Origin: a virus
DNA length: 64,000 nucleotides
Virus record (IMG/VR): IMGVR_UViG_3300002835_000041
Span: 32,001 to 96,000 of that record
Direction: 5' to 3' (one strand)
A program made the position numbers and the translations under genes. Positions 922 to 51,127 of the stretch are shown piece after piece. Each line of letters begins with the position of its first letter. The first letter of the stretch is position 1. Below the pieces are notes generated by a model. The model did no database searches, was not told where the DNA came from, and saw only the letters and a program-made list of their open reading frames with translations.

Positions 922-956
922 TCTGCTATACTTATAACTAATAGAAACGAGAAACG

Positions 957-2620: not shown

Positions 2621-2624
2621 TATC

Positions 2625-2780: not shown

Positions 2781-2911
2781 ATAAAGTTGAAAAAGCATTG
2801 GTAGCACTTGCTGTTGCAGGTAGCGTTGGTTTTGCTTTTGCGTTTGCTGTGCTAAAGGGTATTCCAGAAACATTTGATTGGGAGTCTGACGAGGAGGAAT
2901 CTTATGAGTGA
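2777..2911 (+). CDS. small membrane protein
   Basis: MNKVEKALVALAVAGSVGFAFAFAVLKG..., one hydrophobic helix. Confidence 0.55.
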   Translation: MNKVEKALVALAVAGSVGFAFAFAVLKGIPETFDWESDEEESYE

Positions 2912-3146
2912 TAATCTAAACATAACCGTTGACCAAGTAAACAATCCATTACACTACACATCAGATCCATCTGGCATTGAGTGTATTCAGATAACTCGTC
3001 ATCGTAACTTTAATATTGGAAATGCATTCAAGTATCTTTGGAGAGCAGGACTTAAGGATGAAGCAAAGACTATACAGGATTTAGAGAAGGCAATTTTCTA
3101 TATTAAAGATGAGATAAACAGATTAGAAGGCAAGCATGTCAACTGA
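2904..3146 (+). CDS. DUF3310 (SaV-like) protein
   Basis: DQVNNPLHY..IECI..FNIGNAFKYLWRAGLK..DLEKAIFY; start moved to ATG after GAGGAGG. Confidence 0.8.
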   Translation: MSDNLNITVDQVNNPLHYTSDPSGIECIQITRHRNFNIGNAFKYLWRAGLKDEAKTIQDLEKAIFYIKDEINRLEGKHVN

Positions 3147-3672
3147 AGATGATCTGGTTAAACATTTAGACCAAGTAAATCAAGTTGTAGAAGAATACCT
3201 AAAGGGTAATGACCCCACAGTAATTTCAAAACAACTTTCCATCCCAAGGCAAAGAGTTGTAACCCTTATCAATGAGTGGAAAGTTATGGCATCTGCTAAT
3301 GATGCTATCCGTGCTCGTGCTAAAGAAGCACTTGCAGCAGCAGATACACACTACAGCAAGTTGGTATCTCGCACATACGAAGTTATTGATGAAGCATCTA
3401 TGACTAATAACCTTAGTGCAAAGACTGCTGCCATCAAACTTGTTATGGACATTGAATCAAAGCGTATTGATATGCTTCAAAAGGCTGGTCTTCTTGAAAA
3501 TAAAGAACTTGCTGAAGAGATGATGGAAATTGAAAAGCGTCAAGACATACTTGTTCTTATCTTAAAAGACATTGCATCTGAATATCCCCAGGTTCGTGAT
3601 GAGATTATGCGTAGACTTTCTTCATTTGCAAAAGACAATGAGGTGATTACAGTTGTCCACGACATTCAATGA
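3136..3672 (+). CDS. helical protein upstream of terminase (possible small subunit)
   Basis: N-terminal HTH-like segment, overlaps terL start; function inferred from position. Confidence 0.45.
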   Translation: MSTEDDLVKHLDQVNQVVEEYLKGNDPTVISKQLSIPRQRVVTLINEWKVMASANDAIRARAKEALAAADTHYSKLVSRTYEVIDEASMTNNLSAKTAAIKLVMDIESKRIDMLQKAGLLENKELAEEMMEIEKRQDILVLILKDIASEYPQVRDEIMRRLSSFAKDNEVITVVHDIQ

Positions 3673-6616: not shown

Positions 6617-6640
6617 CCTGGTGGGCGAAAGCCCACCAGG
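6617..6640 (+). terminator. GC-rich hairpin (terminator or processing stem)
   Basis: CCTGGTGGGC-GAAA-GCCCACCAGG perfect 10-bp stem right after the 5470 gene; short U tract. Confidence 0.6.
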
Positions 6641-6647
6641 GTTTACT

Positions 6648-7409
6648 ATGAAATCAATTTATTTTAATCATATACCAAGAACTGGTGGCACTACCATTGC
6701 TAGAATGTTACAAAATTCTGGGCTAAATAAGTGTGATTTAAATATTCTTAGTCCGCAAGAATCTATTGCTAAAAACAAAGAATTTAACAAGACCACTATC
6801 TCTCAAAGTGAATTAATTATGGGTCACTATGGAGTTGCTCCTTCAATACTTAATTCAGATATTGACACAATCACTATATTAAGAAATCCAGTAAATCAGG
6901 TAGTTAGTATGTTTTCCAAATTAAATTATGAAAGCAAAGAGTCAAAAAGCAAAGCACTGGTTCTTGATATATTTAGATCAAGCAAATTTAAAAATGATCT
7001 GCCGAGCCTTTTTATAGAATGGCTTTATGATGAAAGGTCAGTAGATTACACCAATAATGGACAAATACATAACCTAATAAATACAAGGTATCCATATCTG
7101 TATGATCCCAAAACAGGAGAGGATGCAGATAAAGAAACACAAATCCCCGTAACGATTAAGAATGCTAAAGAAAAAATAGACTCTCTTTTGTTTTTAGGAA
7201 CTACAGAAAATATTTATAGTAGTTATATTCAAATATTGGATATTGTAAATACCAGGTTTAATGTTAGCCTAAAACAACTTAGTAGGCCAGGAATCTATAA
7301 CAGCCTAAAGGAAACAGATCAAGTACTAAAAACATTAAAAAACTCAGAGATAGAATATATCCTAGAAAAAAGCAGTATAGACAATTACTATTGGGAGCAG
7401 GCTCTTTAA
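6648..7409 (+). CDS. sulfotransferase family protein
   Basis: HIPRTGGTT 5'-PSB loop and ILRNPVNQVVS 3'-PB motif; start moved to ATG past the hairpin. Confidence 0.75.
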   Translation: MKSIYFNHIPRTGGTTIARMLQNSGLNKCDLNILSPQESIAKNKEFNKTTISQSELIMGHYGVAPSILNSDIDTITILRNPVNQVVSMFSKLNYESKESKSKALVLDIFRSSKFKNDLPSLFIEWLYDERSVDYTNNGQIHNLINTRYPYLYDPKTGEDADKETQIPVTIKNAKEKIDSLLFLGTTENIYSSYIQILDIVNTRFNVSLKQLSRPGIYNSLKETDQVLKTLKNSEIEYILEKSSIDNYYWEQAL

Positions 7410-7490: not shown

Positions 7491-9632
7491 ATTAAACGAC
7501 TACTAAGAATAGTAACAGCCACAGTTTTAGCCTTTGGCTGGCTACTTATAGCCCCCCAGGAAGCCCACTCTGATGATCCACTCACAGTAGCATACCAAGA
7601 AATACAGGAACTTAACGATAGCGTAGATGACCTTGGCTATCAAGATGATTTTATAGATCTTATAGAGATAGCAGAAAATAAGTTTGCCTCAGCCACAAAT
7701 GCGAAGGAACTTAAAGATGATGCCCATGATGCCCACGAAGATGCAGTAGAAGCAGAAGCCACAGCCTTAGAAGCAAAGAACCTTGCCCAGTCAAATGTGG
7801 ATGGGCAAACAGCCACGGTAGCCTTGGCCCTTGAACATAAAGACAACGCCCTTGAAGAAAAGAATGATGCTCAAGATGCACTCAGCATAGCCAATATTAA
7901 TGTTCAAACTACTCAATCAAGTATGCAGGCTGCTGGAGAAACAGGTTTGGCATACACTGTTTATACTCTTGTTAGACAGGGTAATGTTGCTACCCCAGGA
8001 TCTGTGCTTTGTTCTGGTACCTGGAACTCAAGTAGCATGCAACTTCCAGTTTGCGGTAATAGATACGAAAACTTTATAGTTAAGTTCACTGGTCAAATAA
8101 CAGTACCGTCTTGGTTCACATCAACATATTTTGCAGGATATACAGATGATGGATTTAGAATGTATGTAGACGGAAATCTTGCAATAGATCAATGGATAGA
8201 GCAAGGAACTACCTGGAGCGATTATTCACCAGTATATGATGTTAGCGAAGACAAAACATTGAGTGTAGAGATTTGGTGGTACAACGGTGGTGGGCCAGGA
8301 TCTTATCATCTTGGATGGGCAATTCCTGGAGGATGGACTGGAGCAGGTTGTGACTATGCGGGAAATCCAAGAGTATGGGGACAAAACTTTAGTTGTAATC
8401 TTAATACATTTTCTTCTGGCTCAGGACCAACACAGGAACAGATCAATGCTTACAATGATGCTGTTGCAGCACAGGCTATAGCACAAACAAACTATAACAA
8501 TAAATTGGCAGTATACAATGACAAACTAAGCGTATACAACTCTGAGAATACAACACTGTCATCAATGAATCAGGTTTTGCAAACCAAAACACAGGAACAT
8601 CTTGATGCCATTGCAGATACAGAAGATGCTTTAGAATTGAAAAATAGCAAAATACAAATATATAATCAATCAATAACTGATTTAAATAATGCTATTGATA
8701 ACGCATGGCGTTACTATGATGAGCAACTACAAAGAGAAATTCAGTCTGCCATTGCTCAAGCAGCAGCCAATGCTGCAGCCAATCAGCCTACCCCAGAACC
8801 CACCCCAGAACCTTCTCCAGAACCAACTGAAGAGCCAACTGAAGAACCCACACCAGAGCCATCCCCAGACCCAACAGATGAGCCAACTGAAGAACCTACA
8901 CCAGAGCCATCTCCAGAGCCTACAGTAGACCCTACAGATGAGCCTACACCTGAACCTACCCCAGAGGTTACCCCAGATCCAGAACCAACTGAAGAGCCAG
9001 TTGTAGAACCTACTGTAGAACCTACACCAGAACCTTCACCAGAACCTGGACCAGGTCCAGAGCCAGAAGATAATCCTTGGACTGAACCAGATGTAGAAAT
9101 TACTGATAAGGTATTAGCATCACTCGTTCCTGAAAAAGGAACGGGAACAGAAGAAGATCTATCTAATGTTATTGCCAACCTTACAAGTAAGGATAATAAG
9201 TTAGTCACTCTTTCCCCTGAACAAATCACAGCAGTTAGCCAGACACTGAGAGCCTTGACTCAAGAAGCAAAGGCTGAGGTTGCAGAAGACCTTGGTATTA
9301 AGCCTTCAGAAGTTGCACAGGTTGCTGAGCAGATGAAATCTAACCCAGCACTTGCAGAAGCGTTTGTTGAGTTCGCAGATAGAGCAGGGAACGCAGGAGA
9401 AACCCCAATGCCCTTTACATTAGCAGATGCAGTAACAGAAGTACAAACAGAAGCATTCTTGGCAGACCCACTTGGAGCAGTATTTGAAGTGGATGTTACA
9501 GAACTCCTATCTAATTTCTCTGAGTTGGGTATGGATATGACAGACGATCAGAGAGAAAAGGCCCAAGAAGTCATTATCCCAGTAATCATTGTTTCACAGA
9601 TTGCAAATGTAATGATTGGGATGAGGAGGTAA
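7491..9632 (+). CDS. secreted/membrane-anchored PA14-domain protein with coiled coils and PTPEP linker (probable ATT start)
   Basis: Frame open from TAA 7476-7478; ATT after GGGGAAAGGGA gives signal peptide (M)KRLLRIVTATVLAFGWLLIAPQEAHS; FAGYTDDGFRMYVDG PA14 motif; C-terminal hydrophobic helix. Confidence 0.75.
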   Translation: MKRLLRIVTATVLAFGWLLIAPQEAHSDDPLTVAYQEIQELNDSVDDLGYQDDFIDLIEIAENKFASATNAKELKDDAHDAHEDAVEAEATALEAKNLAQSNVDGQTATVALALEHKDNALEEKNDAQDALSIANINVQTTQSSMQAAGETGLAYTVYTLVRQGNVATPGSVLCSGTWNSSSMQLPVCGNRYENFIVKFTGQITVPSWFTSTYFAGYTDDGFRMYVDGNLAIDQWIEQGTTWSDYSPVYDVSEDKTLSVEIWWYNGGGPGSYHLGWAIPGGWTGAGCDYAGNPRVWGQNFSCNLNTFSSGSGPTQEQINAYNDAVAAQAIAQTNYNNKLAVYNDKLSVYNSENTTLSSMNQVLQTKTQEHLDAIADTEDALELKNSKIQIYNQSITDLNNAIDNAWRYYDEQLQREIQSAIAQAAANAAANQPTPEPTPEPSPEPTEEPTEEPTPEPSPDPTDEPTEEPTPEPSPEPTVDPTDEPTPEPTPEVTPDPEPTEEPVVEPTVEPTPEPSPEPGPGPEPEDNPWTEPDVEITDKVLASLVPEKGTGTEEDLSNVIANLTSKDNKLVTLSPEQITAVSQTLRALTQEAKAEVAEDLGIKPSEVAQVAEQMKSNPALAEAFVEFADRAGNAGETPMPFTLADAVTEVQTEAFLADPLGAVFEVDVTELLSNFSELGMDMTDDQREKAQEVIIPVIIVSQIANVMIGMRR

Positions 9633-10204: not shown

Positions 10205-10729
10205 ATGACTTGTATTGCTGTAGTAAAACATGAGGATAAAATCTACATGGCTGGAGATCGTGGCGCATCAGATGATGGAACTATTCTAGCCCTTGACGCT
10301 CCAAAAGTTTGGAAGATAGGTCCCTATCTTATTGGATATGCTGGATCAATGGACGGAGAAAGAATCCGATTTAACTTTAAACCAACACATCCAAACATTA
10401 AAGATACAGACAAGTTTATGCAAACCAGATTTATCAAAGAACTAAAAGAATTCTATAATGAGTTCTGGGTTGACACATCAAAAGATGGAGATCTTGGTCT
10501 AATCATTGCAGTTCGTGGAAATATTTACGAGCATAGTTCTGCAGATATGTCTTTATCTAAGTATACACTACCTTATCTGGCTATGGGTTCTGGAGCAGAG
10601 TACGCCTATGGGGTTTTATATGCAACAGATAAACAAAAAAATGCTAGAAATAGAGTTATGCAAGCAGTAAATGCTGCCATAAAATTTAACCCATCTTGCA
10701 TGGGTCCAGTTGACATCATTAGTCTTTAA
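10205..10729 (+). CDS. Ntn-hydrolase, HslV/proteasome-beta-like peptidase
   Basis: MTCIAVV..MAGDRGAS N-terminal Thr nucleophile; AMGSGAEYA motif. Confidence 0.75.
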   Translation: MTCIAVVKHEDKIYMAGDRGASDDGTILALDAPKVWKIGPYLIGYAGSMDGERIRFNFKPTHPNIKDTDKFMQTRFIKELKEFYNEFWVDTSKDGDLGLIIAVRGNIYEHSSADMSLSKYTLPYLAMGSGAEYAYGVLYATDKQKNARNRVMQAVNAAIKFNPSCMGPVDIISL

Positions 10730-11907: not shown

Positions 11908-11980
11908 TGCCCTATAACTCAGTTGGTAGAGTGCCGAACTGTTAATTCGGATGTCCCTGGATCGAGGCCAGGTGGGGCAG
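11908..11980 (+). tRNA. trnN: tRNA-Asn(GTT)
   Basis: Cloverleaf: acceptor TGCCCTA/TGGGGCA, anticodon arm CCGAA-CTGTTAA-TTCGG; atypical T-loop ATCGAGG; no encoded CCA. Confidence 0.9.
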
Positions 11981-12028
11981 CAGTTTAGTGTATAATTGTT
12001 ATACCAAAACATTTAAGATAAAGGTAAA

Positions 12029-12688
12029 ATGATAACTAAAAAAAATAACATTTCAGGATCCCAATGGTGGATAAACTCTGAAAACTTATCATTGCCTCAA
12101 ATTTTAATGGAGTCTGGACTACCAGACAAATGGTCTAAGTATAACTCAAAAGAAATTTTAAACATAAAAAGCATACTTAAACCAATAAATAACTATGTCC
12201 TTAATCTATATCCAAAGCCAGAAATTATAAACATAACAAATAACATAGTTACTTTTAGGCAAAGAACTCACGCCGAGATTTGGGTTGAAGAAAGAAAAGA
12301 TGGCACACTGTATGCTTTAGATAAGTGTCATCAAAGACAGTTCTATCCATCTTTAAACAATCTAGAAAATAAAGAGTGTTTTGATCCAACCTATAAGTTT
12401 TATATACCCTGGTTTATAAATAAAAATGTTAGCATTAAGATAGCCAGAGTAGAGGATGAGCCTACACCATTCTACATAGGTGAAAAAAATATTATTGGAA
12501 AGCCCCTGCCACATCTATCAGACTATGCCTATTCAGAGTTTGTTGATTTTAAAATTAAGAATACTGGGGAATACTACTTAAAAGAAAAGTATGCTATTAT
12601 TAGTAAGAGCACGGCAATGTACGATATGTCTGTTGTCTTAAGTGACGAAGAGATATCACAAATAAAGGATTACTATGGACAGCAATGA
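12029..12688 (+). CDS. hypothetical protein
   Basis: First ORF of a coupled operon. Confidence 0.6.
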   Translation: MITKKNNISGSQWWINSENLSLPQILMESGLPDKWSKYNSKEILNIKSILKPINNYVLNLYPKPEIINITNNIVTFRQRTHAEIWVEERKDGTLYALDKCHQRQFYPSLNNLENKECFDPTYKFYIPWFINKNVSIKIARVEDEPTPFYIGEKNIIGKPLPHLSDYAYSEFVDFKIKNTGEYYLKEKYAIISKSTAMYDMSVVLSDEEISQIKDYYGQQ

Positions 12689-13439
12689 GTTAGAATTAAC
12701 TTTCATTCCACACGATACGACCACAGGTCTATTGTCTCCAGAGCCATCCTATAAAAAAATACCACAGTGGTATAGAGATTTGGCAAAACATTTTACAACT
12801 AATGACCTAAAGTCTTTGTGTCCAGTAAACGATAGGGGCGGGGATGGGTCAAATGTTTCTACAAAACTATGCTTGCCATTTCAAGATGCAATGTCTCTTG
12901 GGTATATGTATTTACTGGAAGATGACCTAGAAGTAAAACTTGATATAGATGGAAAGCCATCTCTGTCCTGGAAAAAGAATTTTATGATGATGGACAAAAG
13001 ACCTAATGTTGATATGGCAATACCAAAAGATGTTCACCCAATACATTTTGGGGTTAAGATGCAATGGTATTACGAAACACCAAAAGACTATTCTCTATTG
13101 ATGACTATGCCAATAAACAGACCAGACCTACCGTTCTGGATTCCTTCTGGCATTGTTGATTCTGATATATGGGGACTGCCTGCGTTTATACCATTTTTTA
13201 TAAAAAGAGATTTTGAAGGAGTCATTCCAATGGGAACACCAGTGTTTCAGATGATTCCAATTAAAAGAGAGCCTTGGAATTTAGTAGTTGATGATTCTTT
13301 TGAGGCTATAGAAAAACACCAACTAAGATCAGAAAACAGAAGGTCTGACATAACGGCACACTACAGAAAATTTGCATGGAGAAAAAAAGAATATGCAAAG
13401 TATAACAAAGAACAAGCAAACAACAAGGGAGATGAATAA
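12675..13439 (+). CDS. conserved phage beta-rich protein (DUF6065-like)
   Basis: CLPFQDAM..YETPKDYSLL..SGIVDSD..GTPVFQMIPIKREPW pattern. Confidence 0.5.
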   Translation: MDSNELELTFIPHDTTTGLLSPEPSYKKIPQWYRDLAKHFTTNDLKSLCPVNDRGGDGSNVSTKLCLPFQDAMSLGYMYLLEDDLEVKLDIDGKPSLSWKKNFMMMDKRPNVDMAIPKDVHPIHFGVKMQWYYETPKDYSLLMTMPINRPDLPFWIPSGIVDSDIWGLPAFIPFFIKRDFEGVIPMGTPVFQMIPIKREPWNLVVDDSFEAIEKHQLRSENRRSDITAHYRKFAWRKKEYAKYNKEQANNKGDE

Positions 13440-14080
13440 TGTTAAGTAACAGAGAACATAAGTTTTTTGAAAAATATTTAGACAACGATTTAGATCAGTT
13501 GGCTAAATTTTTAGAACAAAAATACGAACTAATTCAAAGCGCTAAACTTCGTGGCGTTGAAACAATGGAAAATGATCCAGGGTATTGGCTAGAGTCTGGA
13601 AGTTTGTCAACTGTAAAGTGGAGAGAGTATAATGTATTTCAACTTTATCATCCATCTCTTCATAAACTATACTCCGAACTATCAAAAACTGTTAAAGAAG
13701 CCTGTGAATATTATGGCGTAGACTTTGAAAAGCAGCAATATTATGTTCAGGGTTGGTTTAATATTAATACCACAGGAAATGGAAAGTTAAACTGGCACGA
13801 TCACGGTGCACCTGGCGCTCCTAATTTTCATGGGTATTACTGTGTAAAGGCTGAGCCATCAACGACATACTATAGACTCTTTGGAGATCCAAATAGAGAA
13901 GTGGCAAATCACAACATAAACAATAGAATGATTGTTTCAGAAATGGGACACCCTCATGCAATGGGAGACTGGGACTGGGAAGGTTCAAGAATAACAGTTG
14001 CGTATGATATTCAACCTCTGCAGTCTTTGCTTATGGGTGGAGAACATACAATTGAACAGCACTGGATTCCATTGTTATAA
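13439..14080 (+). CDS. 2OG-Fe(II) oxygenase-like protein
   Basis: WFNIN..WHDH..HGYYCV..HPHAM..RITVAYDI double-stranded beta-helix motifs. Confidence 0.7.
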   Translation: MLSNREHKFFEKYLDNDLDQLAKFLEQKYELIQSAKLRGVETMENDPGYWLESGSLSTVKWREYNVFQLYHPSLHKLYSELSKTVKEACEYYGVDFEKQQYYVQGWFNINTTGNGKLNWHDHGAPGAPNFHGYYCVKAEPSTTYYRLFGDPNREVANHNINNRMIVSEMGHPHAMGDWDWEGSRITVAYDIQPLQSLLMGGEHTIEQHWIPLL

Positions 14081-14081
14081 A

Positions 14082-14915
14082 ATGAAAAAAATATTAGTTT
14101 ATTTTTATGGGTACAAAAGCAAGTTGCTACCACAAGCAGTAGAGCAACTCATAAAAAATCAAAGTGGTCAAAATGATATACATGTTGTCGTATACGACCA
14201 AACAAATATATCAAGGCCAGAAAAGTTTTTAGGAATAGAATACAATCATATCTACTGGGATAGATTAATATCTAGATTTAAATGCTTTTATCTTCTAAAA
14301 AAAAGAAAAGATTTTGATTTTTTTATGTATGTTGATGGTGCCAAAATGTTTGAAAAGGATTGGGATGCTGAACTATTAAGATACCAGGACGAATCAGATA
14401 TTATACTTTCAGGCAATCACGACATTGTTTTTAATAAAAATAACTATAAGTTTTATCCAGACTGGAATAAAACAAGCATTGCAATGGCAACAAAAAACAA
14501 CTGGTTTGTTAAAGATTTTTTCTTTATGAAATTTAGTTTGTTTGAACTATTTCCTGATATTTCAATATTTAAATATTATGGAGTTGAGGAATATGTTTCC
14601 ATGTATGCAGCGCACAAAGGTATTTCTATAGTTGCTCTTCCAACTAATTTTGTTATTGATCAAGAGCCTAGAATAGAAGAAAATGATTTTGTTCCATTTT
14701 CTCTATATCACAACTATTCAAAAGTTATAGATTCTTTTAAATCAAAAGATGAATCTATGCCTGGAGTAAAAGAACTTATGGATCTTGTAGACTATGATTT
14801 CCGTAGTTTAGAATACTTCCCATATAATACAAACGATGTAGAGTATACATTTTTTTCAAATCTAGATAAAATTTCTGAGCAAAGATTTCATGTAGTGCAG
14901 AATGAGGTATATTGA
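14082..14915 (+). CDS. GT-A glycosyltransferase, divergent paralogue of 50159..51127
   Basis: DFFMYVDGAKMFEKDWD aligns by eye with DYFLQIDSHSRFIDDWD; GVEEYVSM with GEEPTLAL. Confidence 0.55.
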   Translation: MKKILVYFYGYKSKLLPQAVEQLIKNQSGQNDIHVVVYDQTNISRPEKFLGIEYNHIYWDRLISRFKCFYLLKKRKDFDFFMYVDGAKMFEKDWDAELLRYQDESDIILSGNHDIVFNKNNYKFYPDWNKTSIAMATKNNWFVKDFFFMKFSLFELFPDISIFKYYGVEEYVSMYAAHKGISIVALPTNFVIDQEPRIEENDFVPFSLYHNYSKVIDSFKSKDESMPGVKELMDLVDYDFRSLEYFPYNTNDVEYTFFSNLDKISEQRFHVVQNEVY

Positions 14916-15478
14916 TGATAACATTGCCTGTAGTAATTAAAAATTTTATTGCTGCTGAAGATGCACAGACACTAATAAATGAGATTAACAGTCCATCAGA
15001 AGTTAATCCTTACCCAGAATATTACAAGACTAGGTATGGAGGAACTGCTTATCCATACAACAAGGTAGTTTTAGATATTCAAAAAAAATATTCTTTACTA
15101 TCTAACGAGACACACCAAAGACTTAATCCAGAAGAAACAAAGCAAATAAAAACATTTAAATCTTTTGGTTCAGTTTGGACAAAAGGTAGTTCAGCAAACG
15201 CACACGCTGACGATCAGCCACCAGAAGAATTCATTGAATATAGTACGGTAATATATCTTGACGATAATTTTACTGGAGGAGAATTATATTTCCCAAATCT
15301 TAACTTTACATATAAGCCAGAAAAATATGATGGGATATTTTTTGTTAGTGACGGAGAATTATGGAGTCATGGAATATCCGAAATAGAAAGTGGACATAGG
15401 TCAACCCTACTCTACATGCACACAACACAAACAGAACATTCAGGGGGGTATACAATTGTTGATCCAGACCTTAATTAA
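14915..15478 (+). CDS. prolyl-4-hydroxylase-like 2OG-Fe(II) oxygenase
   Basis: HADD, YLDDNFTGGELYF, HGI..GHRST. Confidence 0.8.
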   Translation: MITLPVVIKNFIAAEDAQTLINEINSPSEVNPYPEYYKTRYGGTAYPYNKVVLDIQKKYSLLSNETHQRLNPEETKQIKTFKSFGSVWTKGSSANAHADDQPPEEFIEYSTVIYLDDNFTGGELYFPNLNFTYKPEKYDGIFFVSDGELWSHGISEIESGHRSTLLYMHTTQTEHSGGYTIVDPDLN

Positions 15479-15557
15479 AAAAATTAAGACATACTTAATA
15501 CTAAGAGAAATAAAGAAAAATGATAAAAAAAACAGATACCTGTATTAAGGATAATAT

Positions 15558-16982
15558 ATGATAATTCTTGGAGTAAACGAAACATCTCATGACGCATCAG
15601 TATCTCTAATCAAAGATGGAGAAATTCTTTTTGCAGGGCATGCAGAAAGATATAGCAAACAAAAAAATGACTGGTATATCAATGATAGTTTAATAAAAGA
15701 TGCTTTGCAGTATGGGGCACCAGATCATATTGCCTACTATGAAAAGCCCCTTCTGAAGGCCTCTAGGCTGGCTCTAAGGGGTGGATCTGGAGACTGGAAA
15801 CCAAGGTTTGATATTCCTGGTATACCAAGGAAACATTTTAGTCATCACTATTCTCACGCTGCAGCGGGATACTACACTAGTTCTTTTAGTGATTCCGTAA
15901 TAGTTGTGCTTGATGCTATTGGAGAATACAACACATCTACAATATGGGTTGGTGAAGGAGATAAGATTAGGCTAAAGTATAAGCAAAACTATCCAGTTAG
16001 TTTTGGATTATTTTATTCTGCTTTCACAAAACTAATAGGTCTAATGCCAAATCAAGAAGAATATATCATGATGGGAATGGCAGCATACGGAGACTGGACA
16101 AAATACTATAGAAAAGTAGATGAGTATTTTCCTTCATATACAAAACAAAAATATAATTTTCATCAGGGAATAAATGATTGGGGAGTAAAGATCACTGAGC
16201 AAGATAGGTTTGATATTGCTGCAGCAGTTCAGGTTGTCTATGAGCAAAGACTAAATGATTTTATGCACATGGCATACTCTATTACTGGAAAAAAGAATTT
16301 AGTATTTATGGGTGGTTGTGCACTTAACTCATCAGCAAACACTATGCTTTGGAACATATTTGATATGATCTGGATTATGCCAAACCCTGGAGATGCTGGC
16401 AGTTCTTTGGGTGCTGCTGCTGCACTTTATGGAAAACATCTTGAATGGAAAGACCCATACCTTGGTTATGATCTGGGTGGAAAATATCCTATTCAGAAAA
16501 TTATTGAGGGGATATTAAAAGACGGTATAGTAGCAGTAGCATCAGGAAGAGCAGAATATGGTCCAAGAGCATTAGGAAATAGATCAATTCTTGCAGACCC
16601 AAGAGATCCACTAATCAAAGACAAAGTAAATAGAATTAAACAGAGAGAATTATTTAGGCCATTTGCTCCTGTAGTTTTAGCAGATCACGCATATAGATGG
16701 TTTGATATGGATTTTGAAAGCCCATATATGCAGTACACAGTCAAGTGCTTACAGCCAGACAAGATACCTTCTGTGGTTCATGAAGATGGTACTTCTAGAG
16801 TTCAGACAGTTACAAGAGAACAACATCCAGGATTGTACAGGGTTATAAATAAATTTTATCTACAAACTGGAGTTCCAATACTCTTGAATACTAGTCTTAA
16901 CATAAAGGGTCAACCGCTCCTAAATGATGAAAACGATATACTTAAATGGGAAAAAGAATACAACTTTACAATATGTAGGTAA
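15558..16982 (+). CDS. O-carbamoyltransferase (NodU/CmcH/TobZ family)
   Basis: HDAS..ER, HHYSHAA, MGGCALN, EYGPRALGNRSILADPR, RELFRPFAP, LNTSLN. Confidence 0.92.
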   Translation: MIILGVNETSHDASVSLIKDGEILFAGHAERYSKQKNDWYINDSLIKDALQYGAPDHIAYYEKPLLKASRLALRGGSGDWKPRFDIPGIPRKHFSHHYSHAAAGYYTSSFSDSVIVVLDAIGEYNTSTIWVGEGDKIRLKYKQNYPVSFGLFYSAFTKLIGLMPNQEEYIMMGMAAYGDWTKYYRKVDEYFPSYTKQKYNFHQGINDWGVKITEQDRFDIAAAVQVVYEQRLNDFMHMAYSITGKKNLVFMGGCALNSSANTMLWNIFDMIWIMPNPGDAGSSLGAAAALYGKHLEWKDPYLGYDLGGKYPIQKIIEGILKDGIVAVASGRAEYGPRALGNRSILADPRDPLIKDKVNRIKQRELFRPFAPVVLADHAYRWFDMDFESPYMQYTVKCLQPDKIPSVVHEDGTSRVQTVTREQHPGLYRVINKFYLQTGVPILLNTSLNIKGQPLLNDENDILKWEKEYNFTICR

Positions 16983-17019: not shown

Positions 17020-17634
17020 ATGGCAGCAAAAGGTAGTCTAGAAGCAATCATTGAGATTGCAAAAAAGGAAGTGGGCACAATTGAAGGCCCTAAAGATAAT
17101 GAAACAAAATATGGCAAGTGGACTGGGATGAATTTTCAGCCATGGTGCCAGTCATTTGTTTCTTGGTGTGCATTTACATCGGGATTAGATCCAAAGAAGT
17201 ATCCAAAGTCTGCATCAACAGTAGCAGCGTCAGATTGGTTCAAGAAGAATGGGCGTTGGTCAGATGCTCGTAATGATGATCCACAAGCAGGAGACTGGAT
17301 TTATTTTGATTTTCCAGAAGATGGTGTAAATCGTATTTCACATGTTGGAATCTGTATCAAGAACAACGGAGATGGAACAATCCAAGTTATTGAGGGAAAC
17401 ACTTCAGGAACTGCAAAGGGAGATCAGCGCAATGGCGGAATGTGCGTAGAGAAGACTCGTGGTTATGTAAAAAACAACAAGAAGAAGTTGCTTAATGGAG
17501 TTGTCGGTTGGGGTCGTCCAGTTTATACTGGTGAAGAAAATGCTCCGCTTCTCAATAAGGTGGTAGCACCAGTTGTAGCAAAGCCTGCAGTAAAGCCAGT
17601 AGTTAAGAAACCAGTAGCAAAGAAGGCTAAGTAA
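17020..17634 (+). CDS. CHAP-domain peptidoglycan hydrolase
   Basis: PWCQSFVSWC, HVGI, IEGNT; Lys/Pro-rich tail. Confidence 0.85.
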   Translation: MAAKGSLEAIIEIAKKEVGTIEGPKDNETKYGKWTGMNFQPWCQSFVSWCAFTSGLDPKKYPKSASTVAASDWFKKNGRWSDARNDDPQAGDWIYFDFPEDGVNRISHVGICIKNNGDGTIQVIEGNTSGTAKGDQRNGGMCVEKTRGYVKNNKKKLLNGVVGWGRPVYTGEENAPLLNKVVAPVVAKPAVKPVVKKPVAKKAK

Positions 17635-18137: not shown

Positions 18138-18392
18138 ATGAAGACAATGATTGATGAATCAGTAGAAGTAAAGCAGTGGACACTATCTCCATTGGATAGG
18201 TGTGATTCTTGTGCTGCTGAAGCGTTAGTTCAAGTTACTGGAATCTCTGGAGATTTAATGTTTTGTGGACATCACTACAATAAGATTATGGATAATCCTG
18301 AAGGTTATAAAAAAATGATGTCTTTTGCTCTTACCATCCTTGATGAAAGAGAAAAACTTGTTGAGAATAAGTCAAAGGGTAAGGATTACTAA
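18138..18392 (+). CDS. hypothetical Zn-binding protein
   Basis: DRCDSC..LMFCGHH. Confidence 0.55.
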   Translation: MKTMIDESVEVKQWTLSPLDRCDSCAAEALVQVTGISGDLMFCGHHYNKIMDNPEGYKKMMSFALTILDEREKLVENKSKGKDY

Positions 18393-19153
18393 TGATCATT
18401 CAGATTATTGGACTACCTGGTTCTGGTAAAACAGAACTTGCAAAGGCTTTAAAAGAAAGAATTAATGCTATACATCTTAATGCAGATGAAGTTCGTGCAA
18501 CAGTAAATTCTGATCTTGGATTTACTCCTGAAGACAGGCTTGAACAAGCACGACGAATGGGAGAGATGGCAAGGCTAATTGCAAAACAAGGTGTTGCTCC
18601 AGTCATTGTAGATTTTGTATGCCCAACAGAATTAACTCGTAAAGCATTTGGAAAGCCAGATATTTTAATCTACATGGAAACAATTGAAGAAAGCAGATTT
18701 GAAGATACTAATAAAATGTTTGAAGTACCCAGCAATTTTGACATGGCTTTTATTAGTCATGAGTGGAACGCAAACGAAAAAGCAACAGAAATTATTAAGC
18801 AGTTCAGACTACATGACTGGTCTGCACCCACAACACTTATGCTAGGTAGGTACCAGCCTTGGCACGAAGGCCACCACGCCCTTTACAAGGAGGCTGGCAA
18901 GAGAACTGAGCAGGTACTTCTGGGAGTCCGTAATACCTATAATACAAGTGAAAAGGATCCACTTAAGTTTGATCAGGTAAAAGAATATATTGCCAAAGAT
19001 GAATTTATGGATGGTGCATTAGTATTAAGATTGCCTAACATTACTAACATTGTGTATGGTCGTGATGTAGGGTATAAGATTGAGCAAGTAGATTTGGGGG
19101 CAGACATTCATGCTATATCGGCTACGCAAAAGCGCAAAGAAATGGGCATCTAA
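18392..19153 (+). CDS. cysC: adenylylsulfate kinase fused to HxGH nucleotidyltransferase domain
   Basis: GLPGSGKT, LNADEVR, DLGFTPEDR N-domain; GRYQPWHEGH..ISAT C-domain. Confidence 0.75.
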   Translation: MIIQIIGLPGSGKTELAKALKERINAIHLNADEVRATVNSDLGFTPEDRLEQARRMGEMARLIAKQGVAPVIVDFVCPTELTRKAFGKPDILIYMETIEESRFEDTNKMFEVPSNFDMAFISHEWNANEKATEIIKQFRLHDWSAPTTLMLGRYQPWHEGHHALYKEAGKRTEQVLLGVRNTYNTSEKDPLKFDQVKEYIAKDEFMDGALVLRLPNITNIVYGRDVGYKIEQVDLGADIHAISATQKRKEMGI

Positions 19154-21690: not shown

Positions 21691-22094
21691 TCCAGCCGAT
21701 ATTGTTAGTTATTTTATCAGTCACATCTACGGTATTAGGTTTTCTTTTTTACATTCAAAGAAAAAAGACTATACAGATAGTTGCCAATATGCTAGATTTT
21801 ATGATGATCCAGGAAGCACAAAAACAAGAAACAAAAACAGAGCAAGAACAGTCTAATGAAGACTTTTTAAAATTTATTTCAGATTCTCGTGACTGGGCAT
21901 ACACCTATATAGACGAAGTGCAAGCATCTTTAAATAAGTTTATTAGTGATATTGAGCCAGAGATTAGTTATTTTAAAGAGTATGGGGATGTCGGATCTAT
22001 GGCTCCCAACTACTACTCTATGAAAAAAATCACTGGAGCATATGAAGAACTAAAGAAACTGCTACCAGAAGACTATGGTAAAATAGATACATGA
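21687..22094 (+). CDS. hypothetical membrane-anchored protein
   Basis: N-terminal TM helix. Confidence 0.55.
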   Translation: MIQPILLVILSVTSTVLGFLFYIQRKKTIQIVANMLDFMMIQEAQKQETKTEQEQSNEDFLKFISDSRDWAYTYIDEVQASLNKFISDIEPEISYFKEYGDVGSMAPNYYSMKKITGAYEELKKLLPEDYGKIDT

Positions 22095-22693
22095 TTAATG
22101 ATCCATCAAACAAAGATGAAGTCTATTTAAAAAATGTTGAAAAAATAGGAAGTTCTTCAGAAAACATTCGATATATAGAAAATATCTTGTCTGAAGAAGA
22201 GCACACAGTTTTACTTGAGTATGTAAAGGCCCGTAAAGAATGGGTTCACGAGCCATGGGATGCCGAGACTGTTGGTCCAGACCAGATGCCACAAGACATT
22301 TTAAATATGTTAGAAAAAATATTTGTATTTGTTCAAAATACTGCCACAGATTTTTATGATGTAAAGATTAATGATTTTAAAAGGGACAACCTTGTTTTAA
22401 TTAAGTTTCCACGGGGTCTTGTTTTATATCCACATATAGATACAGATTCAGTAGAATCAAATCACATTGCATCGATATACTATATTAATGACGACTATGT
22501 TGGCGGAGAGATAAACTTTCCAGATTACAATGTAAAGATTCATCCAAAGCCTAACAGTGTTGTTTTCTTTCCTGGCAATGAAAATTACTTACATGAAGTC
22601 CTTACGATTCGAAGTGGAGACCGATATAGCACATCTATGTGGTTTCAGTTTACTGGTTCTACTTTTAACAAAAATGCAGAATGGTATAAATAA
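22091..22693 (+). CDS. prolyl-4-hydroxylase-like 2OG-Fe(II) oxygenase
   Basis: HID, YINDDYVGGEINF, HEV..GDRYS. Confidence 0.85.
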   Translation: MINDPSNKDEVYLKNVEKIGSSSENIRYIENILSEEEHTVLLEYVKARKEWVHEPWDAETVGPDQMPQDILNMLEKIFVFVQNTATDFYDVKINDFKRDNLVLIKFPRGLVLYPHIDTDSVESNHIASIYYINDDYVGGEINFPDYNVKIHPKPNSVVFFPGNENYLHEVLTIRSGDRYSTSMWFQFTGSTFNKNAEWYK

Positions 22694-22695
22694 AA

Positions 22696-23247
22696 ATGAC
22701 AATATCTGAATTAGGAAATTCTGTAGACAATATACAAATTACAGAAAATGTTTTATCTATAGAAGAGCATAGACAACTTCTTTATTATACAACCAATCTT
22801 GATTCTTGGGTTACTCAGCCTTGGGGTGTTAAATTTTTTAAAGATGGACTGCCAGAACAAATCATCAGTATATTAGAAAAAGTTTTTAGGATTGCCGATA
22901 AAAAATGCAGAGAAACCTACAATGTAAGTCTTAATGTTTTTGAAAGAAAAGAAGTACACCTGATTAAGTTTGAAAAAGGCTACAAGATGAATGAGCATGC
23001 AGATACTACGGGGGATTTTGCAGCAATATACTATATTAACGATGACTATGAAGGAGGAGAAATAAACTTTACAGATCATAATCTTAAGATTAAGCCAAAG
23101 TCTAATAGTCTTATTACATTTCCCAGCAATGAAAACTACTGGCACGAAGTTCTTGAAAATACTGTAAAAGAAAGATACTCCTCTACTCTATGGTTTACAA
23201 TTGAAGGATCTAGCCGTGTAAGACCCGAAAGTGGACTGGTCAGATGA
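22696..23247 (+). CDS. prolyl-4-hydroxylase-like 2OG-Fe(II) oxygenase (tandem paralogue)
   Basis: HAD, YINDDYEGGEINF, HEV..ERYS. Confidence 0.85.
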   Translation: MTISELGNSVDNIQITENVLSIEEHRQLLYYTTNLDSWVTQPWGVKFFKDGLPEQIISILEKVFRIADKKCRETYNVSLNVFERKEVHLIKFEKGYKMNEHADTTGDFAAIYYINDDYEGGEINFTDHNLKIKPKSNSLITFPSNENYWHEVLENTVKERYSSTLWFTIEGSSRVRPESGLVR

Positions 23248-50158: not shown

Positions 50159-51127
50159 CTAAAGCCAAGGGCCAACTATATGATCGTGTTGGTCACTTAG
50201 TGAAATTTCAGATTCTTTTTGAAATTTTTCGTATAGTTCATATGAACCTATTCCGTAGACACCCAGAGATGTATCCCCAGATAATATTTTTGCAGCCCTA
50301 AAGTAGGAATCTTTATTCATATCTCCCCACTCGGAGTGATCTTGCCAATGAAGAACCCTTTTGTCGCTATCATAGTTTTCATTATAAGCATGCCACATAT
50401 AGTGAAACGATGGATTAATTAGTTTAACTCCCCTGGTGTAAAACCTCAAGGCCAGAGTTGGCTCTTCGCCAATAAAATACAGTTCTTTATCGTACGGTAT
50501 TTCTTTTATAATCTTTGACTCACAAAACAAAGAGTTAGCACATAAAAAATATGCTTCATATCCATATTTAAAATAATCGCACTCGTACCAAAATGGCTGA
50601 GGCATGGTGTCTTCATCTTTCCACCCCATAGCCCCTCTCATTGGCACTTTTTCAAAATCGTAGAACTCTTCTATTCCAGTTTCGTGATCTCTTCTAAATC
50701 CTTCTGGGTGCATAGTAAACGCAATCTCAGATTGCCAGTAATCTTTACAGGCGACATAGTTTTCTGTTACTACTTTATCCCAATCATCAATAAATCTAGA
50801 ATGGGAGTCTATCTGTAAAAAATAATCAGTATGTATATCCCTAGAGACAATCTCCCTAGCCCAGCATGCGCCTCTACTTTCAGAAAAATGGTATTTCACA
50901 TATCTGATTTGAGACTCTGGTATAAAAGACAAATCAGGATGTTCAGATTCATCGGCTTGAGAAACAATTGAAAAAAATAGTCTATCTCTATACTTTGCAT
51001 TATAGTATGCGCTAGTTACTGTATTTACAAGATCAGGATCTCTATAACTTGCAATTGAAATAAAAATTGTTTTTGATTTTGATGGAACAAAGCGACTAGC
51101 AATTAAAGGTACGTTAATCAATTCCAA
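50159..51127 (-). CDS. GlcNAc-transferase of Gnt1/GT60 (Skp1 hydroxyproline GlcNAc-T)-like family
   Basis: IFISIASYRD, SRGACWAR, YFLQIDSHSRF..WD, FIGEE, WH motifs. Confidence 0.8.
   Translation of the reverse strand: MELINVPLIASRFVPSKSKTIFISIASYRDPDLVNTVTSAYYNAKYRDRLFFSIVSQADESEHPDLSFIPESQIRYVKYHFSESRGACWAREIVSRDIHTDYFLQIDSHSRFIDDWDKVVTENYVACKDYWQSEIAFTMHPEGFRRDHETGIEEFYDFEKVPMRGAMGWKDEDTMPQPFWYECDYFKYGYEAYFLCANSLFCESKIIKEIPYDKELYFIGEEPTLALRFYTRGVKLINPSFHYMWHAYNENYDSDKRVLHWQDHSEWGDMNKDSYFRAAKILSGDTSLGVYGIGSYELYEKFQKESEISLSDQHDHIVGPWL

What the first reader, a model, noticed from the sequence alone, without database searches (positions are those of the whole stretch)
12029..16982. Candidate hydroxylate-glycosylate-carbamoylate operon with a Gnt1/GT60-like enzyme between oxygenases
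Seen: coupled genes for a DUF6065-like protein, a 2OG oxygenase, a GT-A protein, a P4H-like oxygenase and a NodU-family carbamoyltransferase. The GT-A protein aligns by eye with the clear Gnt1/GT60-like enzyme at 50159..51127. Known: in Dictyostelium a prolyl 4-hydroxylase creates Hyp on Skp1 and Gnt1 (GT60) adds GlcNAc; NodU-type enzymes carbamoylate sugar hydroxyls. Inference: a phage-encoded protein hydroxyproline O-glycosylation pathway, with the Pro-rich proteins at 55071 and 7491 as substrates. Alternative: nucleic-acid hypermodification, since phage carbamoyltransferases acting on 5hmC are known, but no hydroxymethylase or TET-like gene is seen here.
Basis: partly seen in the sequence, partly recalled or inferred. 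Interest (0 to 1): 0.75.

Follow-up and report, generated by a model that had tools for sequence, protein, structure and literature searches.

The report
Phage hydroxylase–sugar-transferase tailoring operon
An uncultured 119-kb phage carries a tightly packed operon of oxygenases, a protein-type sugar transferase, odd dUTPase-shaped proteins and a carbamoyl-adding enzyme that stays together in dozens of related phages and probably decorates a protein, though the target is unproven.

Summary
Window 12029-16982 carries six co-directional genes; A to E overlap or nearly abut.

- **A**: unknown, weakly B-like.
- **B**: related to DUF6065. Its predicted fold is that of dUTPase/dCTP deaminase, and it has an invariant cysteine.
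- **C**: has an HxH...H...R motif. The oxygenase assignment is only weakly supported.
- **D**: a GT-A glycosyltransferase, homologous to the PF11397/GT60-like gene at 50159. Its nearest structure is a polypeptide GalNAc-transferase. It lacks the DxH histidine.
- **E**: a P4H-type 2OG oxygenase with an intact HxD...H...R.
- **F**: a NodU/TobZ-type O-carbamoyltransferase.

In 40 of 40 distinct related phage loci with enough flank, the D-type gene has A and B upstream and an oxygenase downstream. F is optional.

B and C are homologous to Syn9 gp43 and gp47. These belong to the cyanophage dioxygenase cluster described in 2010, which sits behind the tail-fibre genes.

The genome has no thymidylate-synthase-like, ThyX, cytosine-5 methyltransferase or dUTPase gene, and no convincing TET/JBP gene.

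The best reading (about 0.4) is hydroxylation, then O-glycosylation, then carbamoylation of a protein. The role of the dUTPase-fold partners is unexplained. Nucleic-acid and small-molecule targets remain open.

The scan noted similar cassettes in other genomes.

The parts
11908..11981 (+). tRNA-Asn (GTT). It separates the upstream peptidase genes from the cassette. A TATAAT-like -10 element (11991-11996) and an AAAGG ribosome-binding site follow, just before A.
   Evidence: ARAGORN; sequence read.
12029..12688 (+). A: a 219-aa protein of unknown family. It is the fastest-evolving member together with D. It is possibly a degenerate relative of B that lacks the acidic D-S-D motif.
   Evidence: No Pfam, PHROG, Atlas or phage-database hit. 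hhalign against the B family gives E 0.0045 over 184 colinear columns. It lies upstream of D in 40 of 40 loci.
12675..13439 (+). B: a 254-aa DUF6065-related protein with a dUTPase/dCTP-deaminase fold and an invariant Cys66. It keeps motif III-like (IVDSD) and motif IV-like (TPxxQ) stretches and has no motif V. It is a homologue of Syn9 gp43.
   Evidence: phrog_7084, E 1e-30. Homologues carry PF19541. AF2 pLDDT 80.6. In VIA the top 22 hits are all dUTPase/dCTP deaminase, Z 8.7 down to 5.1, then a gap to 3.0. hhalign against dUTPases gives E 0.003, colinear on the motifs. hhalign against Syn9 gp43 gives probability 90%, E 1.5e-6.
13439..14080 (+). C: a 213-aa protein with invariant H120-x-H122, H173 and R184. 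It is probably a classical 2OG/Fe(II)-dioxygenase-like cupin (TIGR02466/PF13759-like), but this is not firmly shown. It is a homologue of Syn9 gp47. Some variant cassettes replace it with a second B-type gene.
   Evidence: 897 homologues, none of those listed with a Pfam domain. Invariant residues. hhalign against PF13759 proteins gives E 0.0056 over 175 columns, not improved by a wider profile. No Pfam hit. tblastn to the Syn9 gp47 region gives 3.9e-7.
14082..14915 (+). D: a 277-aa GT-A glycosyltransferase of a distinct subfamily related to PF11397/GT60-like enzymes. It has D85-G-A where GT60/GT27 enzymes have DxH.
   Evidence: AF2 pLDDT 82.4. Foldseek matches GT-A enzymes. VIA top hit is mouse GalNAc-T1, Z 16.0, 231 residues aligned. 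The tail of the profile search is all PF11397. hhalign probability 99.1%. Nine of 38 family members hit PF11397.
14912..15478 (+). E: a 187/188-aa P4H-type 2OG-Fe(II) oxygenase. Its start is probably the ATG at 14915, which overlaps D's TGA stop. H98-x-D100, H153 and R163 are invariant.
   Evidence: PF13640 26.6 bits. Five of 11 family members match. Best solved relatives are P3H1 and Bacillus anthracis P4H, E 0.003-0.02. Alignment.
15558..16982 (+). F: a 474-aa NodU/CmcH/TobZ-type O-carbamoyltransferase. It is an accessory member that moves or is absent in variant cassettes.
   Evidence: PF16861 1e-53 and PF02543 1e-34. phrog_1601 4e-103. NovN, GdmN and TobZ match at 1e-52 to 1e-44. Position varies.
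10205..10729 (+). HslV-like Ntn peptidase. It lies upstream of the cassette in this and many variant loci. This is context and may not be part of the pathway.
   Evidence: phrog_1040 5e-23; PF00227. Synteny.
7491..9632 (+). A Pro/Thr/Glu-rich PA14 protein with a signal-peptide-like N-terminus, an ATT start and a C-terminal hydrophobic tail. It is one candidate substrate.
   Evidence: Translation. PT repeat and PA14. Strong Shine-Dalgarno sequence before the ATT. A Pro-rich ORF of about 720 aa lies upstream in 6 of 10 loci with enough flank.
50159..51127 (-). The phage's second, canonical PF11397 (GT60-like) glycosyltransferase, with its DxH motif intact. It served as the reference for D.
   Evidence: PF11397 1.2e-31. 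It is the first row of alignment A4.

Best explanation
This is a late-strand tailoring operon that modifies a macromolecule, most likely a protein or peptide made by the phage. Candidates are its Pro-rich or collagen-like fibre and surface proteins.

Proposed order of reactions:
1. E, a P4H-type 2OG/Fe(II) oxygenase with an intact iron and 2OG site, puts a hydroxyl on a side chain. C probably does the same. Proline is the most likely residue.
2. D transfers a sugar from a nucleotide sugar onto that hydroxyl. D is a GT-A enzyme related to the GT60 and GT27 polypeptide O-glycosyltransferases.
3. F, where present, uses carbamoyl phosphate and ATP to O-carbamoylate a sugar hydroxyl.

A and B are obligatory partners with a dUTPase-type fold and a conserved cysteine. 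Their role is unknown. I infer that they bind a uridine or pyrimidine nucleotide ligand, such as the sugar donor or its by-product, or that they hold the substrate.

Shown here: the folds, the family relations, the catalytic residues, the operon structure and the conserved linkage. Inferred: the acceptor, the sugar, the order of steps and any role of A and B.
For: - **Operon structure:** the genes overlap or nearly abut.
- **Conserved linkage:** A and B lie upstream of the D-type gene, and an oxygenase lies downstream, in 40 of 40 distinct loci. The cassette sits at two or more genomic positions and its proteins are only 30-50% identical between variants, while the flanking genes are 85-95% identical.
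- **E:** it belongs to PF13640, has an invariant HxD...H...R, and its best solved relatives are prolyl hydroxylases.
- **D:** it is homologous to PF11397, and its best structural neighbours are polypeptide GalNAc-transferases at Z 16.
- **F:** its relatives all O-carbamoylate hydroxyl groups.
- **Wider toolkit in the genome:** a second PF11397 transferase, a collagen-repeat protein, Pro-rich fibres, a weak O-FucT-like match, a GDP-sugar epimerase, three sulfotransferases and an APS kinase.
- **Syn9 parallel:** the related Syn9 cluster (gp43 and gp47 homologues) lies directly behind the tail-fibre and fibre-assembly genes. Iyer et al. 2010 read such clusters as peptide-modifying (PMC2938197).
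- **Position:** the cassette lies on the structural/lysis strand next to peptidase genes and the endolysin.
- **No DNA-modification starting enzyme:** no PF00303, PF02511 or PF00145 match, and PF12851 scores only 12.5 bits.
Against: - No experiment or direct sequence link ties the cassette to any acceptor.
- B's fold and retained motif III and IV residues point to a pyrimidine nucleotide ligand.
- B's paralogue sits 94 nt upstream of the ribonucleotide reductase gene. Lone homologues lie beside ribonucleotide reductase in haloarchaeal virus HF2 and in cyanophage S-RIM4.
- In one variant the whole cassette lies directly upstream of ribonucleotide reductase and has no E.
- D lacks both His ligands of GT60/GT27 enzymes.
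- C's oxygenase status is weak.
- The Pro-rich gene upstream was seen in only 6 of 10 loci, all of one synteny type.
Confidence: 0.4

Rival explanations
1. Nucleotide or DNA hypermodification. B (with A) binds or processes a deoxypyrimidine nucleotide. C and/or E hydroxylate a base, for example thymine to 5-hydroxymethyluracil, without a TET/JBP-type enzyme. D glycosylates the new hydroxyl, as in base J. F carbamoylates it. The result would be anti-restriction DNA.
For: - B has a dUTPase/dCTP-deaminase fold and keeps the acidic motif III and the motif IV Gln.
- The B family lies next to ribonucleotide reductase in three distant virus lineages, and so does the whole cassette in one variant.
- The genome has no canonical dUTPase.
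- A phage carbamoyltransferase acting on 5hmC is known (PMC8670742).
- Dioxygenase-plus-glycosyltransferase DNA pathways exist in phages (PMC13229309).
- Cassette swapping between close relatives fits an arms race.
Against: - No thymidylate-synthase-like hydroxymethylase, ThyX or C5-methyltransferase is present. PF12851 scores only 12.5 bits in an unrelated ORF.
- The known 5hmC carbamoyltransferases co-occur with thymidylate-synthase homologues, which are absent here.
- E and D belong to families whose characterised members act on polypeptides.
- B lacks motif V and does not match PF00692.
- The B family also sits in the Syn9 dioxygenase/halogenase cluster behind the fibre genes.
- The cassette is on the late structural/lysis strand.
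Confidence: 0.2
2. Biosynthesis or tailoring of a small molecule during infection. This could be a peptide-derived or nucleoside-type secondary metabolite, as Iyer et al. proposed for the Syn9 dioxygenase/halogenase array. Oxygenases, a glycosyltransferase and a carbamoyltransferase would act in turn on a diffusible compound.
For: - B and C are homologous to Syn9 gp43 and gp47, and the published reading of that cluster is secondary-metabolite synthesis.
- All solved relatives of F tailor small molecules: novobiocin, geldanamycin and tobramycin.
- The genome also has a P450 and sulfotransferases.
- Bacterial DUF6065 genes sit at the end of ABC-importer operons, as catabolic or tailoring enzymes often do.
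Against: - No scaffold-forming enzyme (NRPS, PKS or ATP-grasp) was seen among the genes scanned.
- D's nearest relatives are polypeptide transferases.
- The phage has many candidate protein acceptors.
Confidence: 0.2
3. Remodelling of a host envelope glycan (LPS, capsule or cell wall) during infection, in the manner of Nod-factor decoration (carbamoylation plus sulfation). The purpose could be to block superinfection or to aid release.
For: The genome carries a NodU-type carbamoyltransferase, sulfotransferases and an APS kinase. The endolysin is adjacent. Heparosan synthase and KfiA are among D's top structural matches.
Against: All the cassette proteins look soluble. No flippase, undecaprenyl-linked or membrane component was seen. 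P4H-type oxygenases and dUTPase-fold proteins have no known role in glycan assembly.
Confidence: 0.1

Closest known systems
Syn9-type cyanophage tandem dioxygenase / tryptophan-halogenase cluster (Syn9 gp41-gp54; Iyer, Abhiman, de Souza and Aravind 2010, PMC2938197)
   Same: - It contains the same dUTPase-fold, Cys-bearing protein family: B against gp43 gives hhalign probability 90% and tblastn 3e-10.
- It contains a C-type dioxygenase: tblastn to the gp47 region gives 4e-7.
- It has several unrelated 2OG oxygenases in one tight array.
- It lies behind the fibre genes on the late strand.
- Its function is also unknown.
   Different: The cassette here has a GT60-like glycosyltransferase and, usually, a carbamoyltransferase. 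No halogenase was seen among the genes scanned. It has far fewer oxygenases (two, against ten), and it has an extra A gene.
Skp1 hydroxyproline glycosylation in Dictyostelium and Toxoplasma (PhyA prolyl 4-hydroxylase plus Gnt1, GT60). This comparison rests on my own knowledge.
   Same: A P4H-family oxygenase is paired with a PF11397/GT60-related GT-A transferase. The logic is to hydroxylate first and then add sugar to the new hydroxyl.
   Different: D lacks the DxH and C-terminal His. There is no Skp1 homologue and no known acceptor. The cassette has extra dUTPase-fold proteins and a carbamoyltransferase. It is viral and cytoplasmic, in a bacterial host.
Phage DNA hypermodification by 5-methylpyrimidine dioxygenases (TET/JBP) with glycosyltransferases, and 5hmC carbamoyltransferase (PMC8256090, PMC13229309, PMC8670742)
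   Same: It combines a 2OG dioxygenase, a glycosyltransferase and/or a carbamoyltransferase, clustered in phage genomes.
   Different: The genome here has no PF12851 enzyme, no C5-methyltransferase and no thymidylate-synthase-like hydroxymethylase. The oxygenases belong to other families.
Trimeric dUTPase / dCTP deaminase superfamily
   Same: B shares the fold (Z 8.7, 115-127 residues aligned). Its motifs II, III and IV line up with those of dUTPases.
   Different: - B does not match PF00692 and has no motif V.
- The sugar-stacking Tyr is replaced by Ile, and the motif IV Arg is lost.
- B has an extra N-terminal region with an invariant Cys and a conserved flexible loop.
- B is not a dUTPase by these criteria.

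Membership tests
PF11397 / CAZy GT60-like glycosyltransferases (gene D) | GT-A (Rossmann-like) fold | tested here: met
   AF2 pLDDT 82.4. Foldseek probability 1.0 to many GT-A enzymes. VIA Z 16.0 to GalNAc-T1.
PF11397 / CAZy GT60-like glycosyltransferases (gene D) | Significant match to the family profile | tested here: inconclusive
   D itself gives no Pfam hit even at E up to 10. However, 9 of 38 D-family members hit PF11397. All nine of the longer, distant profile hits that were scanned are PF11397. Profile-profile comparison gives probability 99.1% and E 7e-19. D is a sister subfamily rather than a plain member.
PF11397 / CAZy GT60-like glycosyltransferases (gene D) | DxH metal motif and a C-terminal His ligand (D107, H109 and H246 in the 50159 protein) | tested here: not met
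   D has D85-G-A. The wider family mostly has S-D-D or S-D-N. No His aligns with H246.
PF11397 / CAZy GT60-like glycosyltransferases (gene D) | UDP-GlcNAc donor and a hydroxyproline or Thr acceptor on a polypeptide | not testable with these tools
   This needs enzyme assays.
Prolyl 4-hydroxylase-type 2OG-Fe(II) oxygenases, PF13640 (gene E) | Profile match above the curated cut-off | tested here: inconclusive
   E scores 26.6 bits against a cut-off of 27. Five of 11 orthologues match at E up to 0.01, the best at 5e-8. E has paralogues in the genome that score 42-51 bits.
Prolyl 4-hydroxylase-type 2OG-Fe(II) oxygenases, PF13640 (gene E) | HxD...H iron triad and a basic 2OG-binding residue | tested here: met
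   H98, D100, H153 and R163 are invariant in 11 orthologues.
Prolyl 4-hydroxylase-type 2OG-Fe(II) oxygenases, PF13640 (gene E) | Hydroxylates peptidyl proline | not testable with these tools
   There is only weak similarity to P3H1 and Bacillus anthracis P4H, at E 0.003-0.02.
PF13759 / TIGR02466-type 2OG-Fe(II) oxygenase (gene C) | Profile match and conserved metal and 2OG ligands | tested here: inconclusive
   No Pfam hit for C or for any of 19 family members. hhalign against six bacterial PF13759 proteins gives E 0.0056 over 175 colinear columns, lining up H120, H122, H173 and R184. A wider profile gives E 0.034. C is a homologue of Syn9 gp47. By my inference gp47 is one of the ten genes that Iyer et al. 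count as dioxygenases; the paper does not name it.
DUF6065, PF19541 (gene B) | Profile match | tested here: inconclusive
   B gives no hit. The genome's paralogue scores 14.3 bits against a cut-off of 26.6. Homologues 50-52% identical to B carry PF19541. The nearest Atlas clusters have PF19541 on 12-15% of their members.
Trimeric dUTPase / dCTP deaminase (gene B) | Fold | tested here: met
   In VIA the top 22 chains are all of this superfamily, with Z from 8.7 to 5.1, and the next hit is at 3.0. Foldseek agrees weakly.
Trimeric dUTPase / dCTP deaminase (gene B) | Five conserved motifs, including the Gly-rich motif V; PF00692 match | tested here: not met
   No PF00692 match in the genome. Motif III (IVDSD) and the motif IV Gln are kept, motif II is kept in part, and motif V is absent.
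NodU/CmcH/TobZ O-carbamoyltransferases (gene F) | Kae1-like N-terminal domain plus YrdC-like C-terminal domain | tested here: met
   PF02543 1e-34 and PF16861 1e-53. NovN, GdmN and TobZ match at 1e-52 to 1e-44.
5hmC carbamoyltransferase pathway (Yang et al. 2021) | Co-occurrence with a thymidylate-synthase-like dCMP hydroxymethylase | tested here: not met
   No PF00303 or PF02511 match in the genome, which CheckV rates 100% complete. The criterion is taken from PMC8670742.
TET/JBP (5mYOX) DNA hypermodification clusters | PF12851 dioxygenase and, for 5mC routes, a C5-methyltransferase | tested here: not met
   The best PF12851 score is 12.5 bits against a cut-off of 34.9, in ORF 22091-22693 outside the cassette. 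No PF00145 match.
Syn9-type dioxygenase cluster (Iyer et al. 2010) | dUTPase-fold protein with a conserved Cys, next to several distinct 2OG dioxygenases | tested here: met
   B is homologous to gp43 and C to gp47. Cys66 is invariant. E is a further dioxygenase.
Syn9-type dioxygenase cluster (Iyer et al. 2010) | Tryptophan halogenases in the cluster | tested here: not met
   None of the cassette genes or their neighbours matches a halogenase family. The rest of the genome was not scanned specifically for halogenases.

The most novel reading that the evidence does not exclude
Tailed phages of this large, uncultured group O-glycosylate hydroxylated residues of their own fibre or surface proteins and then carbamoylate the sugar. 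Hydroxyproline on the Pro-rich linkers is the most likely site. The pathway would need a previously uncharacterised, Cys-bearing enzyme or adaptor with a dUTPase fold. This would be an extensin- or Skp1-like protein modification never shown in a virus of bacteria. The cassette would be swapped between close relatives to vary the virion surface.
Probability: 0.3. Interest if true: 0.85.

Novelty: new variant of a known kind. Interest (0 to 1): 0.6.

Why it matters
The function of the many 2OG oxygenases and NodU-like carbamoyltransferases in marine and freshwater phages has been open since the first cyanophage genomes (PMC3037559, PMC2938197).

This cassette gives a compact, testable unit of five or six soluble proteins. 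Their linkage is invariant across many phages, and plausible substrates are encoded nearby.

Showing what it modifies would do four things:
- assign a role to DUF6065 and its dUTPase-fold relatives, which were found in several hundred bacterial loci as well as in archaeal viruses and phages;
- define a new branch of GT60-like transferases;
- decide whether phages make hydroxyproline-type glycoproteins or a new kind of modified DNA;
- explain why the module is exchanged between phages that are otherwise nearly identical.

Tried and rejected
It found nothing for P0100, P0128 and P0094. A back-translated motif scan worked instead.
- D, a distant D homologue (P0081), C and A have no tblastn match in 50,697 deposited phage genomes.
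- A has no hit in Pfam, PHROGs or the Atlas.
- Profile searches of D and B, and a single-sequence (phmmer) search of C, against the sequences of solved structures found nothing.
- Bacterial DUF6065 neighbourhoods were uninformative: an ABC importer, a TPR protein, EamA, GcpE and similar genes.
- I tried to firm up C as a PF13759 oxygenase with a wider profile, and the result did not improve. The sub-threshold PoNi_C matches of the C family look spurious.
- I considered that B is simply the phage's dUTPase. I rejected this as a full account because B lacks motif V and does not match PF00692, and because its family sits in dioxygenase clusters.
- I considered the parallel divergence of A and D as a sign that they interact. 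I rejected this because all the proteins share one phylogeny; it shows only that A and D evolve fastest.
- The structure-prediction cap (two jobs) left A and C unfolded.

Full report
**Setting.** The window is bases 32001-96000 of a 118,981-bp virus record that CheckV rates 100% complete. No deposited phage is close at the DNA level. The finding lies on the + strand. Upstream of it are fibre-like and peptidase genes, and downstream is a CHAP endolysin at 17020-17634. A tRNA-Asn (11908-11981), a -10-like TATAAT element and a ribosome-binding site come just before the first gene.

**Observation.** There are six genes, not five.
- A: 12029-12688.
- B: 12675-13439, overlapping A by 14 nt.
- C: 13439-14080, overlapping B by 1 nt.
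- D: 14082-14915, 1 nt after C.
- E: 14912/14915-15478, its start overlapping D's stop.
- F: 15558-16982, 79 nt after E.

The ATG at 14082 is the true start of D: 63 homologue clusters, nearly all of about 277 aa, begin there.

**Gene D.** Pfam and PHROGs give no hit.
- An AlphaFold model built on 22 homologues (pLDDT 82.4, pTM 0.82) has a GT-A fold.
- Foldseek finds heparosan synthase, polypeptide GalNAc-transferases, KfiA, mimivirus R699 and the LH3 glycosyltransferase domain.
- An all-against-representatives structural search puts mouse GalNAc-T1 first (Z 16.0, rmsd 3.3, 231 residues). Heparosan synthase (Z 15.0) and Toxoplasma GalNAc-T3 (Z 14.8) follow.
- A profile search of 1.8 billion representatives finds 149 proteins. 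All nine of the longer, distant hits that I scanned are PF11397, and one D-family member passes PF11397 itself. Nine of 38 D-family members hit PF11397 when scanned singly.
- Profile-profile comparison of the D family with PF11397 proteins, including the window's own 50159-51127 gene, gives probability 99.1%, E 7e-19 and 241 columns.

Plain BLASTP saw only the shared stretch around the metal motif.

D differs from those enzymes at the metal site. D has D85-G-A where PF11397 has DxH, and no residue aligns with the second His. Most of the wider D family has S-D-D or S-D-N at that position. D is best filed as a separate branch next to GT60, not as a member of it.

**Gene E.** E scores 26.6 bits against PF13640, where the cut-off is 27. 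Five of 11 orthologues match. H98, D100, H153 and R163 are invariant. Its best solved relatives are prolyl 3- and 4-hydroxylases, but only weakly (E 0.003-0.02). The genome holds at least four more PF13640 paralogues.

The PHROG label 'DNA endonuclease' on one of E's matches probably comes from mis-annotation. In the Syn9 record two genes of its dioxygenase array are labelled 'DNA endonuclease V'.

**Gene F.** F is a complete NodU/CmcH/TobZ-type O-carbamoyltransferase.

**Gene C.** C belongs to a very large family of 897 hits, and none of the 120 listed has a Pfam domain. H120-x-H122, H173 and R184 are invariant in close homologues and present in 45 of 49 wider ones.
- Comparison with six bacterial PF13759 proteins gives only E 0.0056, but the alignment is colinear over 175 columns and lines up those residues.
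- A wider profile did not help, and no family member hits PF13759.
- C does match the gp47 region of cyanophage Syn9 (tblastn 3.9e-7). That gene lies inside the array of ten tandem dioxygenases described by Iyer et al..

I treat C as a probable but unproven dioxygenase.

**Gene B.** B matches phrog_7084. Homologues 50-52% identical to it carry PF19541, DUF6065, and the Atlas agrees. B itself does not reach the profile.

A model built on 30 homologues (pLDDT 80.6) has the fold of trimeric dUTPases and dCTP deaminases. The top 22 chains of the wide structural search all belong to that superfamily, with Z from 8.7 down to 5.1, and the next chain scores 3.0. Foldseek agrees weakly.

A profile comparison with five bacterial dUTPases is weak (E 0.003), but it lines up the motifs:
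- B's PINRPDLPF with motif II;
- SGIVDSDIWG with motif III (GTIDSDYRG);
- GTPVFQMIP with motif IV.

There is no motif V, and the ribose-excluding Tyr is replaced by Ile. The genome has no PF00692 dUTPase. B also has an invariant Cys66 and a conserved, low-confidence loop at residues 40-63.

A note from an earlier follow-up in this scan led me to Iyer et al. 2010. [quoted passage not shown] I tested the link. Syn9 gp43, the gene just after the two halogenases, matches the B family at hhalign probability 90% and E 1.5e-6, with the Cys aligned. It matches a B-type paralogue by tblastn at 3e-10. The fold assignment therefore has independent published precedent. Linkage of this family to dioxygenase arrays now holds in two unrelated phage groups.

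**Gene A.** A has no match anywhere. The one exception is a weak, full-length colinear similarity to the B family (E 0.0045, 184 columns), without the acidic motif.

**Linkage.**
- Twenty-six IMG/VR loci with close D homologues keep A-B-C-D-E in order. F moves or is separated by inserts.
- A back-translated motif scan brought in 78 more loci with distant D homologues.
- Three layouts recur. The first is an HslV-like gene, then A-B-B-D-E, sometimes a further P4H-type gene, then F and the CHAP gene. The second is A-B-C, sometimes a second C, then D-E and a P4H-type gene. The third is A-B-B-C-C-D-C directly upstream of the ribonucleotide reductase gene, with no E or F.
- Among the 40 distinct loci with at least 3 kb on both sides of D, A and B are upstream in 40, C is upstream in 26, an oxygenase is downstream in 40, and F is somewhere in the locus in 32.
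- In L029 the flanking genes are 85-92% identical to the window's, while the cassette proteins are 30-50% identical and C is replaced by a second B-type gene.

The module is therefore a unit that is exchanged and remodelled. Its core is A, B, D and an oxygenase. F is an accessory.

**What argues for a nucleotide or DNA target.**
- B has a nucleotide-enzyme fold.
- B's paralogue in this genome (105242-105958) lies 94 nt upstream of ribonucleotide reductase.
- Lone homologues lie beside ribonucleotide reductase in haloarchaeal virus HF2 and in cyanophage S-RIM4.
- Phage carbamoyltransferases for 5hmC and dioxygenase-glycosyltransferase DNA pathways are known.

**What argues against it.**
- The genome has no thymidylate-synthase-like enzyme, ThyX or C5-methyltransferase, and only a 12.5-bit TET/JBP trace in an unrelated ORF.
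- The known 5hmC enzymes co-occur with thymidylate-synthase homologues.

**What argues for a protein target.**
- The families of E and D are ones whose characterised members act on polypeptides.
- The Syn9 counterpart sits right behind the tail-fibre and fibre-assembly genes.
- This phage encodes Pro-rich proteins, a collagen-repeat protein, a second canonical PF11397 enzyme, a sugar epimerase, three sulfotransferases and an APS kinase.
- A Pro-rich ORF of about 720 aa precedes the HslV-like gene in 6 of 10 loci with enough flank, although all six are of one synteny type.

Bacterial DUF6065 neighbourhoods gave no help.

**Verdict.** Its weakest points are the unknown acceptor, D's altered metal site and the unexplained dUTPase-fold partners.

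The rivals are nucleic-acid modification (0.2), small-molecule tailoring as proposed for Syn9 (0.2) and host glycan remodelling (0.1).

The literature search found no paper mentioning DUF6065 and only one unrelated paper mentioning PF11397. Other first-stage notes and follow-ups in this scan describe similar cassettes in other genomes. I count them as leads only.

Noticed in passing
window 7491-9632: The Pro/Thr/Glu-rich PA14 protein is open from 7491, with a signal-peptide-like N-terminus (KRLLRIVTATVLAFGWLLIAPQEAHS). There is no ATG, GTG or TTG before 7797. An ATT at 7491 follows a strong AAGGGGGAAAGGG Shine-Dalgarno sequence and a TGGTATAAT -10 element, so an ATT start is likely. The C-terminus is hydrophobic, like a membrane anchor.
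   Followed up: partly
genome G000 105242-105958 and 106052-108085 (beyond the window's end): A 27%-identical paralogue of B lies 94 nt upstream of the phage's ribonucleotide reductase. Homologues also sit beside ribonucleotide reductase in haloarchaeal virus HF2 and in cyanophage S-RIM4.
   Followed up: partly
genome G000 1-4005 versus 115247-118953: The two ends of the contig carry homologous sets of five genes. The first pair is 96% identical and the other four pairs are 54-66% identical. In addition, the first 200 bases occur twice in the contig. This could be a real duplication of structural genes or a chimeric or concatenated assembly of two related phages.
   Followed up: no
window 6621-7409, 28938-29513 (-), 32681-33232 (-), 18392-19153: Three sulfotransferase-like genes and an APS-kinase / cytidylyltransferase-like fusion. 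Together they would let the phage make PAPS and sulfate something.
   Followed up: partly
window 22091-23247, 29618-31942 (-): Four more P4H-type (PF13640) oxygenases. One is the C-terminal domain of a 475-aa protein, and two are a tandem pair 44% identical to each other.
   Followed up: partly
window 48555-49739: A full-length cytochrome P450 (PF00067, E 8e-57) is encoded by the phage, about 400 bases from the canonical PF11397 glycosyltransferase gene, which lies on the opposite strand.
   Followed up: no
window 52931-53662: A protein with collagen triple-helix repeats (PF01391), just upstream of the 887-aa Pro-rich, Cys-module fibre.
   Followed up: no
L215 (Syn9 36054-43144): In the Syn9 RefSeq record several genes of the dioxygenase array are labelled 'DNA endonuclease V', 'minor coat protein' or 'ferrochelatase'. 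These labels probably spread into PHROG names such as phrog_2297 'DNA endonuclease', which E matches.
   Followed up: partly
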